From: an uncultured bacterium
GTDB lineage: Bacteria; Babelota; Babeliae; Babelales; Vermiphilaceae
Assembly: GCA_963701085.1 (NCBI GenBank)
Contig: OY969561.1
Span: forward strand, 1,024,001-1,088,000
Direction of reading: 5' to 3'
Length of the DNA stretch: 64,000 nt
Positions 50,292-58,018 of the stretch are shown one piece after another. The notes under the pieces are model-generated. The model had not been told where the DNA came from. It made no database searches and saw only the letters and a list, made by a program, of their open reading frames with translations. The stretch's first letter is position 1, and each line of letters begins with the position of its first letter. Position numbers and translations under genes: made by a program.

Positions 50292-51869
50292 ATGAATTCA
50301 CCAATTACTATTCCCAGCATATTCCCCGTTACGTGTCACACTGATTTTGTGGGACATGGATCCTGTTTTGTTGCTATTGAAGGGTATGCGGATAATGGTG
50401 TTAAGTATATTAGGCAAGCTATAGAAAAGGGTGCACGTACAATAGTCGTGCACCACAACACTTTTTTAGATGACGAATTATGTTCATTCATACACATGCA
50501 TGGAGTTGTTGTTGAACGTGTTGATAATACGCGCAAGGCGTTAGCTGAACTTAGCACTCAAGCTGCTGGTTTTCCCGCAAAAAAGTTACGCATTATTGGT
50601 ATCACCGGCACTAAAGGCAAAACAACAACCTCTTTTTTACTTGAACATATTCTCCATTCTGCCGGTTATAAAACGGCACTCATTAGTTCCGCTCAAAATC
50701 GCATTTGCGGTCACAATTTTTCTGCACCGTTAACAACACCGCAACCTGATTATTTACAGCAATTTCTGAAGTTGTGTGTGGAACATAATGTTGATTATGT
50801 GGTGATGGAAGTTGCTGCTCAAGCGCTTACACTTCATCGCGTTGCGGGCATTACATTTTGTGGTATCATTTTTACTAATTTTTCTCATGAGCATTTAGAA
50901 TTTTATCCAACACTTGATGATTATTTTTATGCAAAAACATTAATTTTTGACATGGCCGCACATGATGCACCGATATTGGTTAATGGCGATGATGCACATG
51001 GCATACAATTACTTGATCAACATATGCATGCTGTAGGTTATGGATTTGGTAATATTTCAAAAATTACTGTATCATCTGAGATTTTATATTCTAGCGCTCG
51101 TCCTGAACTTGTTGAAGGATATCCTCGAGCGCTCGAAGAAACCCTTCAACAGGTTCAGGGTGAGCGCGAAAAAACAAAAACATTGTCGGGTAACTCTCGT
51201 GATGTATGTTATAAAGGCATACATATATCTGATCCTATTCATGGCATTATGTTTGAAGTGCAGTACCGCAATGATGCGATGACAGTTGTCTGCCCAAAAT
51301 TGTTTGGGGCTTATAATGGCTATAATGTATTAGCGGCAACAAGTATGGCATTAGCATTATCCATAACACCCGATACTGTACATGCAGCATTACTTTCCTT
51401 TTCAGGTGTTCCGGGTAGGTTGCAGGAACATGTTCTTACTAATGGTGCGCGTTGTTTTATTGATTATGCGCACAATCCAGAATCATTTGAAGCAGTTTTA
51501 TCAACATTACGTTCTCTCACCCATCAGTTAATTGTATTGTTTGGTGCTGGTGGTGGCAGAGACAAGTCTAAACGTCCAATGATGGGCGCTATCGCCGCAC
51601 AGATTGCCGACATTGTGGTAATCACCTCAGATAATCCTCGCTTAGAAGACCCAATCGTAATAGCAGATGATATTATACAAGGTATACCTGTATCCTTGAA
51701 ACACAAGGTTGTGCAGGAACTTGATCGTAAAAAAGCAATTGAACATGCCTATTTTTTATCGGACCAGGGTTCTATTATCGCATTGCTGGGCAAAGGTCCT
51801 GATGAATATCAGATTATCGGAACAACAAAACATTATTTCAGCGAACAACGCGTTGTTGAGCAGTTGTAG
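50292..51869 (+). CDS. murE: UDP-MurNAc-dipeptide--meso-DAP ligase
   Basis: GITGTKGKTT, LTTP, FTNFSHEHL, VPGRLQ, DYAHNP, DNPR (mDAP-type), GKG. Confidence 0.95.
   Translation: MNSPITIPSIFPVTCHTDFVGHGSCFVAIEGYADNGVKYIRQAIEKGARTIVVHHNTFLDDELCSFIHMHGVVVERVDNTRKALAELSTQAAGFPAKKLRIIGITGTKGKTTTSFLLEHILHSAGYKTALISSAQNRICGHNFSAPLTTPQPDYLQQFLKLCVEHNVDYVVMEVAAQALTLHRVAGITFCGIIFTNFSHEHLEFYPTLDDYFYAKTLIFDMAAHDAPILVNGDDAHGIQLLDQHMHAVGYGFGNISKITVSSEILYSSARPELVEGYPRALEETLQQVQGEREKTKTLSGNSRDVCYKGIHISDPIHGIMFEVQYRNDAMTVVCPKLFGAYNGYNVLAATSMALALSITPDTVHAALLSFSGVPGRLQEHVLTNGARCFIDYAHNPESFEAVLSTLRSLTHQLIVLFGAGGGRDKSKRPMMGAIAAQIADIVVITSDNPRLEDPIVIADDIIQGIPVSLKHKVVQELDRKKAIEHAYFLSDQGSIIALLGKGPDEYQIIGTTKHYFSEQRVVEQL
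51093..51167 (+). repeat. Complete type-A hairpin in frame inside murE
   Basis: gcgctcgtcctgaacttgttgaagga-tatcctcgagcgctcgaagaaa-cccttcaacaggttcagggtgagcgc; 25 codons SARPELVEGYPRALEETLQQVQGER. Confidence 0.93.
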
Positions 51870-55762: not shown

Positions 55763-55844
55763 ATAACTTGAAAACAAATGAGCTCTATGCCATCCTGTTA
55801 TTGAGCAAGACTCTTTCATGATCATGAACTATAAAGGAACTCAG

Positions 55845-56066
55845 ATGCTAAAAAATAAGGCCCCTTTATCTAAAATTACTCCGCAATATATTATTGATAA
55901 AGCTGGTAAAAAAACAGGCGTAATTCTTGATATTCTTGCCTTTGAGCAGCTTTTGGAAGAAATAGAAGATATTTATTTTGGATCCATTGCTCATAAAGCA
56001 TTACATGAAGAAGATGAGTATATTACGCATACCGATGTTAAAAAAAAGATAGCTAGGAAACGTTAA
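55845..56066 (+). CDS. Antitoxin of RelE/ParE-type module
   Basis: QYIIDKAGKKTGVILDILAFEQLLEEIEDI, acidic; TAATG-coupled to the toxin. Confidence 0.75.
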   Translation: MLKNKAPLSKITPQYIIDKAGKKTGVILDILAFEQLLEEIEDIYFGSIAHKALHEEDEYITHTDVKKKIARKR

Positions 56067-56350
56067 TGGCAAGTAATTTTGAAGACTTTTCTATTGTATG
56101 GCTTAAATCTGCCCATAAAAGTTTTGAAAAATTACCTATGCTTACCCAAAAATCTATTATAAAGCAGATAGATCTTTTACCCACTTCTTACGAAAATAGT
56201 GATATAAAAAAACTCAAAGGTCATTCAGATCTTTACCGGTTACGAGTCGGTGACTATCGCATTATTTTTTCAATAAATAAACAAGCGCAACAAATTCGCA
56301 TATCTGCTGTTGGTCATCGAAGAGATATTTATAATTTAATCAGTAACTAA
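56066..56350 (+). CDS. relE: RelE/ParE-family toxin (RelE/StbE-like)
   Basis: IKKLKG..LYRLRVGDYRIIF..VGHRRDIY. Confidence 0.92.
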   Translation: MASNFEDFSIVWLKSAHKSFEKLPMLTQKSIIKQIDLLPTSYENSDIKKLKGHSDLYRLRVGDYRIIFSINKQAQQIRISAVGHRRDIYNLISN

Positions 56351-56367
56351 ATTTTTTTTGAAAACGT

Positions 56368-56404
56368 AAAAAGAGCTGCAGAAATTCTGTGGCTCTTTTT
56401 TTTT
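56368..56404 (+). terminator. Terminator, copy 2 (after relE)
   Basis: aaaaagagctgcagaa-a-ttctgtggctcttttt, one mismatch to copy 1. Confidence 0.85.
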
Positions 56405-56482
56405 ATGTGCATGATGATGCAAGTTGTTGCGGTTGGCGCAATAATAACCGTATGCTGAAGATATAAAAAAAGGAGTGACGTC

Positions 56483-58018
56483 ATGAAAACAATATTTCAT
56501 AAGAAGTTTCTCTACTACATTTTAAGTTGCTATAGTTACTCAGCGAATTTTTCATTAGCGCTCGCCCTGAACAGTTTTATCCCCATCTTCAGTTCCTTTC
56601 AATGGGGTCCCCGGTTTGGAGTGAAACGAAAACTGGGGCAAAAGGGTGTCTTCGAGCGCTCGAGGATATCCTTTTGCCCCAGTTTTCGTTTTATTCCAAT
56701 CGGGGTCCCCATCAAGAGAAGTCGAAGATGGGGTGAGCTGACGAGCGCGGGGAATAAAGGGCAAGACTATTGGTTGTTATTATATTGTTTGTTAAGCATT
56801 GGTGCATTGTCGTATGCAGATGATATGCCTTTTAAACTTGGTGTTGAAAATATTCCCACTTCATTATTTAAAAAAATCTGTCCTCATAAAAAAAATGATT
56901 CTTGCATGGTTGGTTTAATCACCAATCAGACCGGTGTTGATCAAAAAGGTGTGCGAACAATTGATATTCTTGTGCAGCGCGGATGCGCATTGCGGTATAT
57001 TTTTGCTCCAGAACATGGGTTGAATGGTGTTCTTGCCGAGCGTGATGTGCACGATTCTGTTGATAAAAAAACAGGTGTTCCGATTATTAGTTTGTATGGC
57101 AATGGTTCGGGAAAAATGATTGCACCTGAGTATTTGAATAACATTGATTTTTTAATATTTGATATTCAAGATTCTGGCATGCGCCACTATACCTATATTT
57201 CTACACTGCTTAACACCATGAAAATCGCCGCAGAACATAATAAACCATTTGTGGTGTTAGATAGACCTAATCCATTGGCAACAGTTATGGAGGGCCCTCT
57301 TGTTGCTCCCGAACTTATCTCATTTATTTCCATTGCCCCGATTCCATTACGTCATGGCATGACCATTGGCGAACTTGCATGGTATTTTAATAAACATGTT
57401 TTAGATAAACCGGCAGTGTTGCACGTGGTTAAAATGAAAAATTATGATCGTACACAAGGTTTTGTTGGTGAACTTGTGCATCAATTATCACCAAATCTGC
57501 AATCACTACAATCATGTTATGGCTACAGTTTTTTAGGATTATTGGGAGAAATAGAACCGTTTGATGTTGGTGTTGGTACACCTATGGCGTTCCGTTGTAT
57601 TGCATTACCAGAAAGCATGCACGTGCCGCATGGTGTATGGGAACGGTTGCAAACAATACTCAGTTCATTTGGGGTGCAAAGTTTTCCATATCACCATGTT
57701 AATACAAAGAATAAAAAGAAGAATAGAGGATTGCGGTTGGAGTTTTCTGATGTTAATGATCTGCATGCATTTGAGCTTTTTATTACGATTTTGCAGTTTT
57801 TTAAAAAAGAGAAGATAACATTTTCTTTTTCAGCGGCGTTTAATAAAGCGGTGGGGACTAAGGATGTACAAGAATTAATTGCGGGAAATGTGTCCGAGCG
57901 CCAGTTTTTTAGACAAATACATAAAGATTTGCAACGCTTTCACCGGCGTGCGCAATCTTCATTCTTTTACCAACCAGCACCCGTAATTGCGTGTAAATCT
58001 TTGATCACCTCTTTGTGA
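56483..58018 (+). CDS. namZ: DUF1343/NamZ-family exo-beta-N-acetylmuramidase with repeat-expanded N-terminus
   Basis: VGLITNQTG, FAPEHG, SLYG, FDIQDSGMRHYTYISTL, VLDRPNP, RHGMTIGELA; aggag RBS. Confidence 0.88.
   Translation: MKTIFHKKFLYYILSCYSYSANFSLALALNSFIPIFSSFQWGPRFGVKRKLGQKGVFERSRISFCPSFRFIPIGVPIKRSRRWGELTSAGNKGQDYWLLLYCLLSIGALSYADDMPFKLGVENIPTSLFKKICPHKKNDSCMVGLITNQTGVDQKGVRTIDILVQRGCALRYIFAPEHGLNGVLAERDVHDSVDKKTGVPIISLYGNGSGKMIAPEYLNNIDFLIFDIQDSGMRHYTYISTLLNTMKIAAEHNKPFVVLDRPNPLATVMEGPLVAPELISFISIAPIPLRHGMTIGELAWYFNKHVLDKPAVLHVVKMKNYDRTQGFVGELVHQLSPNLQSLQSCYGYSFLGLLGEIEPFDVGVGTPMAFRCIALPESMHVPHGVWERLQTILSSFGVQSFPYHHVNTKNKKKNRGLRLEFSDVNDLHAFELFITILQFFKKEKITFSFSAAFNKAVGTKDVQELIAGNVSERQFFRQIHKDLQRFHRRAQSSFFYQPAPVIACKSLITSL
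56558..56748 (+). repeat. 191-nt compound hairpin in frame in the namZ leader
   Basis: Ends gcgctcg...cgagcgc; centre aagggtgtcttcgagcgctcgaggatatcctt is the reverse complement of the murE centre with one mismatch; both arms carry ccccatcttc..tgggg and ccccg..aaacgaaaactgggg modules. Confidence 0.92.

What the first reader, a model, noticed from the sequence alone, without database searches (positions are those of the whole stretch)
56558..56748. 191-nt compound hairpin inserted in frame into the NamZ leader
The same ends and centre as the murE element, inverted, but both arms carry two extra modules (ccccatcttc..tgggg and ccccg..ttgga.t.aaacgaaaactgggg). Symmetric expansion suggests copying between arms. 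About 64 codons stay open between the RBS/ATG at 56483 and the hydrophobic signal core (WLLLYCLLSIGALSYA|DD). The insert could be removed with the signal peptide, impair export, or attenuate translation through mRNA structure.
Basis: partly seen in the sequence, partly recalled or inferred. Interest (0 to 1): 0.75.

Follow-up and report, generated by a model that had tools for sequence, protein, structure and literature searches.

The report
Mobile hairpin repeat inside NamZ leader
A 191-base DNA hairpin sitting in frame inside the export signal of a cell-wall recycling enzyme is a recently inserted copy of a selfish palindromic repeat family, of a kind already known from Rickettsia, that spreads through this group of amoeba-associated bacteria.

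Summary
Window 56558-56748 is a near-perfect 191-nt hairpin (RNA fold -135.9 kcal/mol, z -13.9) lying in frame in namZ. The ATG at 56483 aligns with the start codons of congeners' namZ.

It is not a special device. It is a composite, gene-less copy of a genus-wide palindromic repeat family in a Babeliales (Dependentiae) genome: 54 paired copies, basic form 74-75 nt. Other copies sit in frame in MurE, RecD2, DprA and a PP-loop protein, as Rickettsia palindromic elements do. All four small GIY-YIG nuclease genes of the genome lie at the centre of such palindromes. This resembles the published Ssn/SRM nuclease-repeat pairing, but the published SRM motif is not met.

The insertion is recent: a metagenome contig 98% identical downstream has 36 nt where this genome has 303 nt. 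Two congeners carry independent in-frame elements in the same leader. A paralogue pair in this genome shows a clean 213-nt insertion into another signal peptide.

Most likely the insert is translated as a basic N-terminal extension and removed with the signal peptide. A downstream TTG start and impaired expression are not excluded. In-situ arm copying is not supported. This scan has reported the same repeat-nuclease principle before, on other DNA.

The parts
56470..56485 (+). Shine-Dalgarno AAGGAG (56470-56475) and the ancestral namZ start codon ATG (56483-56485).
   Evidence: Sequence. Aligns with the SD and ATG of orthologues from G005, G002, G007, G001 and G010. Local-alignment z 6.4-12.9 against 6 of 10 orthologous leaders.
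56483..58018 (+). namZ ORF of 511 aa. The exo-beta-N-acetylmuramidase NamZ domains begin at residue 143.
   Evidence: PF07075 E 1.1e-63; PF20732 E 2.9e-10.
56514..56816 (+). Block of 303 nt that a closely related metagenome contig replaces by 36 other letters. The net gain here is 267 nt, or 89 codons. It contains the element, its outer layers and the second hydrophobic segment.
   Evidence: tables 5, 5c and 8. Run X2 record 6 has 5 differences in 270 nt on 56817-57086 and 21 nt on 56493-56513. Only the namZ frame of this block is stop-free (1 of 6 frames).
56546..56557 (+). T-rich left outer layer (AATTTTTCATTA), shared with other copies of the family.
   Evidence: Matches to other copies start at query 33-36 of 56514-56816 and at 56547. 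Typical left flanks are TTTTTYCC.
56558..56748 (.). The 191-nt composite palindrome: termini, modules A and B on both arms, and the centre.
56581..56638 (.). Left-arm modules A (56581-56607) and B (56609-56638). Each is a mini-hairpin bounded by CCCC..GGGG.
   Evidence: 97% identical to the arm at genome 124500 and 79% to this element's own right arm. In 12 other aligned copies the module-A hit lies on one side of the element centre or without a centre.
56635..56690 (+). Inner hairpin (20 pairs, 10 G-C) followed by AGTTTTCGTT. It is terminator-like on this strand.
   Evidence: (consensus scan only): 4 terminator-like sites in 56300-56900 against 0.4 expected. Three of them are this hairpin.
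56677..56733 (.). Right-arm modules B' (56677-56705) and A' (56707-56733).
56734..56759 (+). Shortened right terminus TGAGCTGACGAGCGC (8 nt shorter than canonical) and the purine-rich right outer layer GGGGAATAAAG.
   Evidence: The same short right end occurs in the doubly armed copy of G010. Matches of other copies reach query 245-246.
56757..56776 (+). Possible alternative start: SD-like AAGGG (56757-56761) and an in-frame TTG (56774-56776), 12 nt apart.
   Evidence: Read. No in-frame ATG or GTG lies between the element and the hydrophobic core. Not tested.
56771..56824 (+). Hydrophobic core and likely signal-peptidase site: WLLLYCLLSIGALSYA|DD.
   Evidence: Kyte-Doolittle 15-residue mean of 1.92 at residues 98-112. 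Small residues at -3 and -1 were judged by eye. Orthologues have (P)FKLGVEN directly after their 19-30 aa leaders.
51094..51167 (.). Basic 74-nt copy of the family, in frame in murE (encodes ARPELVEGYPRALEETLQQVQGER).

Best explanation
**What it is.** The hairpin is the core of a composite, gene-less copy of a palindromic mobile-repeat family. The family is confined, among the genomes searched, almost entirely to this Babeliales genus. Its gene-carrying members enclose a small UPF0213-like GIY-YIG nuclease, which is the candidate mobilising enzyme.

**How it got there.** The copy arrived recently, already doubly armed and with outer layers, in the part of namZ that encodes the signal peptide. 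There it replaced about 36 nt by 303 nt and kept the reading frame from the ancestral ATG at 56483.

**What happens to the protein (inferred).** The protein is made with a leader of about 112 residues. The element-encoded stretch is strongly basic (13 K/R against 3 D/E), so it should stay on the cytoplasmic side. The following hydrophobic segment WLLLYCLLSIGAL would engage the Sec machinery. Cleavage after SYA would then discard the whole insert and leave mature NamZ unchanged.

**Bottom line.** The element is selfish DNA that survives because it landed in a disposable part of the protein. It is not a regulatory device.

**Shown versus inferred.** Shown: family membership, recency, frame conservation, the ancestral start, and recurrence of such insertions. 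Inferred: translation through the hairpin, topology, cleavage, and the role of the nuclease.
For: **Family.** There are 54 paired copies, and 35 of them are the 65-76-nt basic form. The family was found in 9 of 10 congeners and in only 1 of 20 genomes outside the genus, and that hit was weak.

**In-frame copies in real genes.** MurE, RecD2, DprA, a PP-loop protein and NamZ all carry one.

**Ancestral start.** The region around ATG 56483 aligns with the orthologues' starts.

**Empty allele.** The X2 contig has 5 differences in 270 nt downstream and carries 36 nt in place of 303 nt. Read by hand, it stays in frame.

**Independent leader insertions.** G006 and G009 carry in-frame elements of other subfamilies between the start and the hydrophobic core.
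- On the NamZ tree G009 is sister to the insert-free G003 (support 100/100).
- G000 is sister to the insert-free G002/G005/G007 (support 94/95).
- G006 has no ATG, GTG or TTG between its element and the hydrophobic core (read).

**In-genome control.** Two WD40 paralogues, 87% identical, differ by exactly 213 nt (71 codons). The extra DNA lies between MKxxIYL and LITAHFLITASCTA|MEN.

**Charge and hydropathy.**

**Nuclease link.**
- 4 of 4 intact GIY-YIG ORFs in this genome sit at palindrome centres.
- 27 of 30 loci sampled across the family have flanking inverted repeats at z of 7.6 or more, as do 15 of 17 loci within the genus.

**Permissive background.** The RNase III model PF14622 was found in 0 of 31 Babeliales genomes searched.
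Against: - No expression data exist. The only RNA contig laid covers 56825-56980.
- SignalP or a comparable predictor was not available.
- A first hydrophobic stretch at residues 23-39 (Kyte-Doolittle 1.66) could act as a signal anchor and invert the topology.
- The mRNA hairpin of -136 kcal/mol and a terminator-like inner hairpin with a U-rich tail could lower expression.
- An SD-like AAGGG lies 12 nt before an in-frame TTG at 56774, which allows a downstream start. G009 also has GGGAGA before an in-frame TTG (read).
- Because the insertion is recent (about 2% divergence from the empty allele), an intact ORF is weak evidence that the gene still works.
- The empty allele rests on one contig of depth 3.6 with only 21 nt on its left side.
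- The block that changed is not a simple insertion. The flanks differ as well, and that is unexplained.
- G005 has 40 repeat matches but no nuclease ORF was found there.
Confidence: 0.6

Rival explanations
1. The functional start has moved downstream. NamZ would be translated from the in-frame TTG at 56774, using the purine-rich right flank of the element (AAGGG) as ribosome-binding site. That gives a short leader, M-LLYCLLSIGALSYA. The element and the upstream open frame would then be a 5' leader or upstream ORF, and its being in frame would be incidental.
For: - SD-like AAGGG at 56757-56761 lies 12 nt before the TTG.
- Right flanks of the family are generally GGGRAAA, which is SD-like.
- G009 has GGGAGA about 6 nt before an in-frame TTG that precedes its hydrophobic core (read).
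- Chance in-frame continuity is not negligible: 1 of 3 forward frames of the 191-mer is open.
Against: - The strong ancestral AAGGAG-ATG is retained and orthologous.
- Such a leader would have no charged n-region.
- G006 has no ATG, GTG or TTG after its element.
- All four leader insertions examined (G000, G006 and G009 NamZ; the WD40 paralogue) keep the frame from the ancestral ATG. That argues for selection on continuity, although these cases were noticed partly because their frames were long.
Confidence: 0.2
2. The insertion damages or throttles namZ. The long hairpin with its U-rich tail would terminate or stall expression, or the two hydrophobic segments would mis-insert the precursor. 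On this view the gene is a recent casualty on the way to loss, or is expressed at a much lower level.
For: - The insertion is recent, so an intact ORF says little.
- The inner hairpin plus AGTTTTCGTT is flagged as terminator-like.
- The hairpin is very stable, at -135.9 kcal/mol.
- There are two hydrophobic stretches.
Against: - Comparable in-frame leader insertions persist in G006 and G009, which have full-length NamZ frames.
- The same holds for one of two WD40 paralogues.
- Basic 37-bp-stem copies are tolerated inside essential genes such as murE.
- RNase III was not found.
- Of the 5 differences from the empty allele downstream, 3 fall on third codon positions (worked out by hand). The number is too small to weigh.
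Confidence: 0.15
3. The hairpin has been taken over as a regulatory element of namZ. One example would be a translation-coupled attenuator in which ribosomes reading the leader prevent formation of the terminator-like hairpin.
For: The layout formally resembles a leader-peptide attenuator: a start codon 75 nt upstream of a hairpin with a U-rich tail. The module-B variant that creates the tail is shared only by both arms of this copy and by copy 124500.
Against: - The same family is scattered through unrelated genes and spacers.
- The insertion is recent and absent from a 98%-identical relative.
- Leader insertions in G006 and G009 are of other subfamilies without this tail.
- There is no conservation that would indicate selection.
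Confidence: 0.05

Closest known systems
Rickettsia palindromic elements (RPE). Ogata et al. 2000 and 2002, seen only as summarised in passages of the review PMC10969869 and in passages of PMC3733652.
   Same: - A dispersed palindromic repeat family in a reduced genome of an intracellular bacterium.
- Many copies are inserted in frame in unrelated housekeeping genes and add a peptide without breaking the ORF.
- Insertions fall in tolerant parts of proteins: a variable MurE loop, interdomain linkers and leaders.
   Different: - A different phylum (Babeliales/Dependentiae; record title).
- No sequence relationship to RPEs was tested.
- These elements are long, near-perfect palindromes with nested modules.
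- They have gene-carrying members with a GIY-YIG nuclease.
- This copy lies inside a cleavable signal peptide.
Ssn single-stranded-DNA nucleases with NTS/SRM hairpin repeats (Chenal et al. 2025, PMC11893778). I read the abstract, sections 6, 7, 10 and 17, and passages of the discussion.
   Same: - A single-domain GIY-YIG protein of about 100 aa, flanked on both sides by copies of a repeat that is also scattered through the genome in many gene-less copies.
- Enriched in symbionts.
- The authors note the IS-like layout.
   Different: - The published degenerate SRM motif has 0 matches in this genome, against 1-3 in shuffles.
- The flanks here are the two arms of one long palindrome, not separate 30-nt hairpins.
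- The nearest solved structures are UPF0213 proteins (1zg2 at E 1.5e-13; 1ywl).
- Membership of the cd10448 clade could not be tested.
- In the parts of the paper I read, in-frame insertion into genes is not described.
REP elements with RAYT transposases, and CGTC-tagged REPs (Di Nocera et al. 2013, PMC3733652; passages read).
   Same: - Small GC-rich palindromes, sometimes inside genes.
- A dedicated enzyme gene is flanked by the repeats (REPtron layout).
- The CGTC-tagged class includes RPE-4/-6 and the Neisseria dRS3 repeat, and was reported to lack a transposase.
- About half of the termini here read GCGCTCGTCC, which contains CGTC.
   Different: - No Y1/RAYT transposase in this genome (PF01797, 0 hits).
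- The units are 74-nt palindromes, not 20-40-nt stem-loops.
- The left end of the NamZ copy reads CGCC, not CGTC.
[quoted passage not shown]
   Same: Short gene-less derivatives that share their terminal inverted repeats with rarer gene-carrying elements. Each of three subfamilies here has a matching ORF-bearing copy.
   Different: - The partner gene is a small nuclease, not a known transposase.
- No target-site duplication could be defined.
- The NamZ event replaced flanking sequence rather than simply inserting.

Membership tests
RPE-like in-frame palindromic repeats | Dispersed family of palindromic repeats within one genome. | tested here: met
   101+92 terminus hits against 2 in a shuffled genome, and 52-54 paired copies.
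RPE-like in-frame palindromic repeats | Copies inserted in frame in conserved protein-coding genes with the ORF maintained. | tested here: met
   MurE, RecD2, DprA, a PP-loop protein and NamZ. The MurE insert is absent from 9 of 10 congeners at that site.
RPE-like in-frame palindromic repeats | Sequence homology to a described RPE family (RPE-1 to RPE-10). | not tested
   No RPE sequence was available from a tool. Rfam gave no match in the window.
Ssn / SRM system | Single-domain GIY-YIG protein of about 100 aa. | tested here: met
   Four ORFs of 96-115 aa, PF01541 at E 2e-18 to 1.6e-17, no other domain over cut-off.
Ssn / SRM system | Nuclease gene flanked on both sides by the genome's own dispersed repeat. 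| tested here: met
   4 of 4 in G000. 27 of 30 and 15 of 17 loci elsewhere have flanking inverted repeats.
Ssn / SRM system | Repeats fit the published degenerate SRM search motif (methods section 17 of PMC11893778). | tested here: not met
   0 matches on both strands of the genome and none in four test regions (the NamZ and murE copies and two ORF-bearing copies). Five shuffles gave 1-3.
Ssn / SRM system | [quoted passage not shown] | not testable with these tools
   No CDD and no Ssn reference sequence were available. The nearest solved chains are UPF0213 proteins.
Ssn / SRM system | Site-specific cleavage of single-stranded DNA next to the repeat. | not testable with these tools
   This needs a biochemical assay.
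REP / RAYT (REPtron) | Associated IS200/IS605-type Y1 transposase. | tested here: not met
   PF01797 gave 0 hits in G000. The control search hit 6 of 14 known genomes.
MITE | Terminal inverted repeats shared with a gene-carrying element. | tested here: met
   Arms of the ORF-bearing copies equal the two halves of the 74-mers. Because the inner end GAGCGCTC is itself palindromic, it also forms a direct repeat on both sides of the ORF.
MITE | Target-site duplication at insertion sites. | tested here: inconclusive
   No clear duplication at the WD40 paralogue junctions. The NamZ event is a replacement of 36 nt by 303 nt.
Sec-type cleavable signal peptide (NamZ leader) | Basic n-region, hydrophobic core, and small residues at -3 and -1. 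| tested here: inconclusive
   Kyte-Doolittle 1.92 at residues 98-112, preceded by 13 K/R. S-Y-A|D was judged by eye. No signal-peptide predictor was available. A second hydrophobic stretch lies at residues 23-39.
NamZ (exo-beta-N-acetylmuramidase) | Both Pfam NamZ domains, full length. | tested here: met
   PF07075 covers profile positions 1-202 of 203; PF20732 covers 3-152 of 152.

The most novel reading that the evidence does not exclude
The family may spread by a nuclease-triggered, homing-like copy-in that drags flanking DNA along. That would explain why 36 nt of the empty namZ allele were replaced by 303 nt whose outer parts resemble the flanks of other copies.

The T-rich left layer and purine-rich right layer encode hydrophobic and basic residues. 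A copy landing in a secretory leader would therefore rebuild an n-region and an h-region by itself, making signal peptides preferred safe harbours.

If the UPF0213-like nuclease is the driver, it would be a second GIY-YIG lineage, separate from Ssn, that mobilises RPE-like protein-coding palindromes.
Probability: 0.25. Interest if true: 0.7.

Novelty: new variant of a known kind. Interest (0 to 1): 0.45.

Why it matters
In-frame palindromic repeats have been a curiosity of Rickettsia for 25 years. Their means of spread remained open until a GIY-YIG nuclease was paired with related hairpins in 2025.

This locus shows the same behaviour in an unrelated phylum of protist-associated bacteria, with three useful extras:
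- a natural empty allele that dates the event;
- an in-genome paralogue pair that gives a clean before-and-after of an insertion into a signal peptide;
- three independent insertions into one leader.

Together these make the signal peptide a testable example of a disposable protein segment that shelters selfish DNA.

There are also practical consequences. Gene callers will mis-place the start of such genes, and signal-peptide predictors will probably miss the signal. Long palindromes also break short-read assemblies.

Tried and rejected
- **Rfam.** A gathering-threshold scan of the whole window gave no family.
- **RAYT/Y1 transposase as mobiliser.** Rejected: PF01797 gave 0 hits.
- **Duplication of the leader.** I tested whether the segment after the element is a duplicate of the segment before it, or matches orthologous leaders. 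Only a 16-nt match turned up (56449-56464 against 56811-56826, z 3.5). There was no significant similarity of the post-element DNA to any of 10 orthologous leaders. I dropped the idea.
- **BLAST of the NamZ flanks against the genome.** Uninformative. A local-alignment comparison with the flanks of other copies gave scores of 26-34, against a 99th percentile of 22-24 for random 60-mers. That is suggestive only.
- **Expression.** Among the 23 runs listed (20 hold at least part of the stretch), no run held half or more of the stretch's sampled words. The RNA contig laid covers only 56825-56980 and says nothing about the element.
- **Coverage in X1, X3 and X9.** Missing cover of the element in these runs carries no meaning.
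- **Literature.** Searches for GIY-YIG combined with inverted repeats, MITE, hairpin, UPF0213, YhbQ or COG2827 turned up nothing relevant by title or abstract start. The relevant paper came as a lead from earlier notes of this scan.
- **G007 leader.** I considered that its LALALRSF is a remnant of an element terminus. This rests only on a by-eye similarity and was not pursued.
- **Failed call.** One search failed on a wrong reading frame and was repeated correctly.
Full report
**Observation**

Its parts, from left to right, are:
- a 15-nt terminus, GCGCTCGCCCTGAAC;
- two mini-hairpin modules: A (56581-56607) and B (56609-56638);
- a centre around GAGC|GCTC;
- the mirror modules B' and A';
- a right terminus 8 nt shorter than canonical.

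The repeat finder reports arms of 53 nt at 83% complementarity and 36 nt at 75%. As RNA, 56540-56770 folds at -135.9 kcal/mol, against -70.4 for shuffles (z -13.9; 0 of 200 shuffles as good). The ORF 56483-58018 runs through the element and carries both NamZ Pfam domains from residue 143 onwards.

**A repeat family, not a one-off**

The genome is a single 1.2-Mb contig at 37% G+C. A congener's record is titled Candidatus Babeliales.

The terminus motif, with up to 3 mismatches, occurs 101 times forward and 92 times reverse, against 2 in a shuffled genome. It pairs up into 52 elements, or 54 when a wider pairing window is used and the NamZ copy is added.
- The basic form is a 74-75-nt near-perfect palindrome. 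Of the 52 pairs, 27 are 74-75 nt long.
- About a dozen copies of 129-143 nt carry an extra unit on one arm.
- Four copies are 390-435 nt long.
- The NamZ copy is the only one in this genome with modules on both arms.

The family was found in 9 of 10 congeners, with 22-60 matches each and none in G001. Outside the genus, 1 of 20 genomes gave a weak hit. Copies are 91-99% identical between species whose NamZ proteins are only 63-79% identical.

**In-frame copies in genes**

Of the 54 elements, 18 lie in stop-free frames of 100 codons or more. Many of those frames are probably spurious. Pfam confirms that five are real genes: MurE, RecD2 helicase, DprA, a PP-loop (TilS-like) protein and NamZ. A sixth is a WD40-like protein whose Pfam scores fall below the cut-offs.

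The MurE insert sits in a variable loop and is absent there from the other congeners. G009 has an independent insert of another subfamily about 15 residues upstream.

The basic element is rich in open frames. 20 of 35 copies have 4 of 6 frames stop-free, against a mean of 2.1 for random 74-mers. For the NamZ 191-mer the figure is 2 of 6, against 0.95. Being open is therefore not remarkable in itself. Keeping the gene's frame is what selection would enforce.

**Where translation starts**

The region 56449-56485 (promoter-like stretch, AAGGAG, ATG) aligns with the start regions of orthologues. Local-alignment z is 6.4-12.9 for 6 of 10 orthologous leaders. Eight of the 10 orthologues have leaders of 19-30 residues, followed directly by (P)FKLGVEN.

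A contig of run X2 matches 56817-57086 with 5 differences in 270 nt. It then has 36 other letters and then matches 56493-56513, where the contig ends (tables 5, 5c, 8). Read by hand, that allele stays in frame and gives ..IFHKKFL CSLIAFSSAYIVS DDMPFK.., an ordinary short leader on the same start.

This genome therefore gained 267 nt (89 codons) recently. The changed block, 56514-56816, is larger than the hairpin. Two caveats apply: this is one contig at depth 3.6, and only 21 nt lie on its left side.

The flanks of the NamZ copy resemble the flanks of a few other copies more than random 60-mers do. Matches to other copies extend to about 56546 and 56759. The inserted unit thus has outer layers. 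Why the remaining flank differs from the empty allele is unexplained.

**Recurrence of leader insertions**

G006 and G009 also carry in-frame elements with the same kind of termini, but of other subfamilies, between the conserved start and a hydrophobic core that precedes FKLGVEN. On a NamZ tree:
- G009 is sister to the insert-free G003 (support 100/100);
- G000 is sister to the insert-free G002/G005/G007 (support 94/95);
- G006 lies elsewhere.

Three independent gains are the simplest reading.

Within this genome, two tandem WD40 paralogues (87% identical) differ by exactly 213 nt. The extra DNA is a 138-nt composite plus outer layers, inserted between MKxxIYL and LITAHFLITASCTA|MEN. This is a clean before-and-after of the same phenomenon.

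**The symmetric arms**

Sixteen module-A arm hits in the genome were aligned, about ten of which also carry a recognisable module B.
- The NamZ left arm is 97% identical to the copy at genome 124500.
- It is only 79% identical to its own right arm.
- Both arms and copy 124500 nevertheless share a derived version of module B (..AAACGAAAACTGGGGCAAAAGG) that the other 13 aligned arms lack.

A doubly armed copy with the same shortened right end lies in an intergenic spacer of G010. The doubly armed form is therefore an older lineage, perhaps born by arm-to-arm templating or by recombination of inverted copies. It was not created at namZ.

Several nuclease-bearing copies in congeners have multi-layered symmetric arms up to about 180 nt long. 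Symmetric layering is thus a habit of the family.

**The nuclease link**

The four long copies each hold a 96-115-aa ORF at the palindrome centre. These are GIY-YIG domains at E 2e-18 to 1.6e-17. They are the only strong GIY-YIG hits of this kind in the genome, apart from one decayed hit.

Homologous small ORFs occur in 16 of 40 other sampled genomes of the taxonomic family and in 8 of 10 congeners. Flanking inverted repeats at z of 7.6 or more were found at 27 of 30 loci, and at z of 15 or more at 15 of 17 loci.

G001 has neither repeats nor the ORF. G005 has repeats, but no ORF was found there.

Database names say only "predicted GIY-YIG endonuclease". The nearest solved structures are UPF0213 proteins.

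**What is already known**

- RPEs insert in frame in Rickettsia genes (passages of PMC10969869, which cites Ogata 2000 and 2002; I did not read those two papers).
- CGTC-tagged REPs include RPE-4/-6 and the Neisseria dRS3 repeat, and were said to lack a transposase (passages of PMC3733652).
- Chenal et al. 2025 (PMC11893778; abstract, sections 6, 7, 10, 17 and discussion passages read) paired NTS/SRM hairpins with the single-domain GIY-YIG nuclease Ssn. They noted the IS-like layout and an enrichment in symbionts.
- Earlier notes of this scan led me to that paper. They report the same principle in other Babeliales and candidate-phyla genomes.
- The published SRM search motif has 0 matches in this genome, against 1-3 in shuffles, and no RAYT is present. 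This is therefore a look-alike or sister system, not a shown member.
- I found nothing on such repeats in Dependentiae. A search for Dependentiae plus palindromic gave 6 papers, none relevant by listing. A search for Babeliales plus repeat gave 13 papers. The TM6 comparative paper had 0 hits for six terms.

**Consequences for NamZ (inferred)**

The leader has two hydrophobic stretches:
- residues 23-39, mostly element-encoded, Kyte-Doolittle 1.66;
- residues 98-112, Kyte-Doolittle 1.92.

Between them lie 13 K/R against 3 D/E. By the positive-inside rule (established knowledge), the basic stretch should stay cytoplasmic. The second stretch should then act as the signal core, with cleavage after SYA removing the whole insert.

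Three observations point the other way:
- an SD-like AAGGG lies 12 nt before the in-frame TTG at 56774;
- the inner hairpin plus U-rich tail is flagged as terminator-like;
- the insertion is recent.

RNase III models found nothing in this genome. PF14622 found nothing in any of 31 Babeliales genomes. That may be why long RNA hairpins inside messages are tolerated.

**Verdict**

The finding is real, and it is explained as an RPE-like selfish insertion with a candidate nuclease partner. It is a new variant of a known kind. Its interest lies mainly in the signal-peptide setting and in the natural controls.

Noticed in passing
Genome C1: 231591-231980, 339093-339527, 1091301-1091692 and 1102820-1103217 (all outside the window): All four intact small GIY-YIG nuclease ORFs of the genome sit exactly at the centre of family palindromes. 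The palindromic inner end (GAGCGCTC or AGCGC) is present on both sides of each ORF.
   Followed up: yes
Whole genome G000 and 30 relatives: The RNase III models found nothing. PF14622 hit 0 of 31 Babeliales genomes, and PF00636 gave 0 hits in G000. The same search hit 8 of 14 control genomes.
   Followed up: partly
Genome C1: 801551-802909 and 804122-805264: Tandem WD40-like paralogues, 87% identical. One carries a 213-nt in-frame composite element inside its signal peptide and the other is empty.
   Followed up: yes
Window 55818-56350: A RelB-like antitoxin and ParE toxin pair lies directly upstream of namZ. In several congeners the upstream neighbour looked like an ankyrin-repeat gene on the other strand (by eye). 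The toxin-antitoxin pair may therefore be a local insertion.
   Followed up: no
Window 56449-56464 and 56811-56826: A 16-nt direct repeat (14 of 16 identical) links the namZ promoter region with the codons just before the mature protein (z 3.5). It is unexplained and may be chance.
   Followed up: partly
L009 (G009) and L017 (G009 murE): G009 carries elements of the CCGYTCGCCCTGAG subfamily in frame both in its NamZ leader and in MurE. In MurE the site differs from the G000 MurE insert.
   Followed up: partly
L005 (G007), namZ leader: The short G007 leader contains LALALRSF, which resembles the LALALNSF encoded by the element terminus in G000. A half-element remnant lies upstream of its start (by eye). 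Possibly the scar of a lost insertion.
   Followed up: no
L079, L081, L083, L078 (congeners): Some nuclease-bearing copies have two- or three-layered symmetric arms of 100-180 nt. These look like elements nested within elements, with the same order on both sides.
   Followed up: no
Window 56368-56400: A terminator-like hairpin with a T-run lies right after parE, so namZ probably has its own promoter in 56400-56470. The consensus scan found no sigma-70-like site on the + strand there.
   Followed up: no
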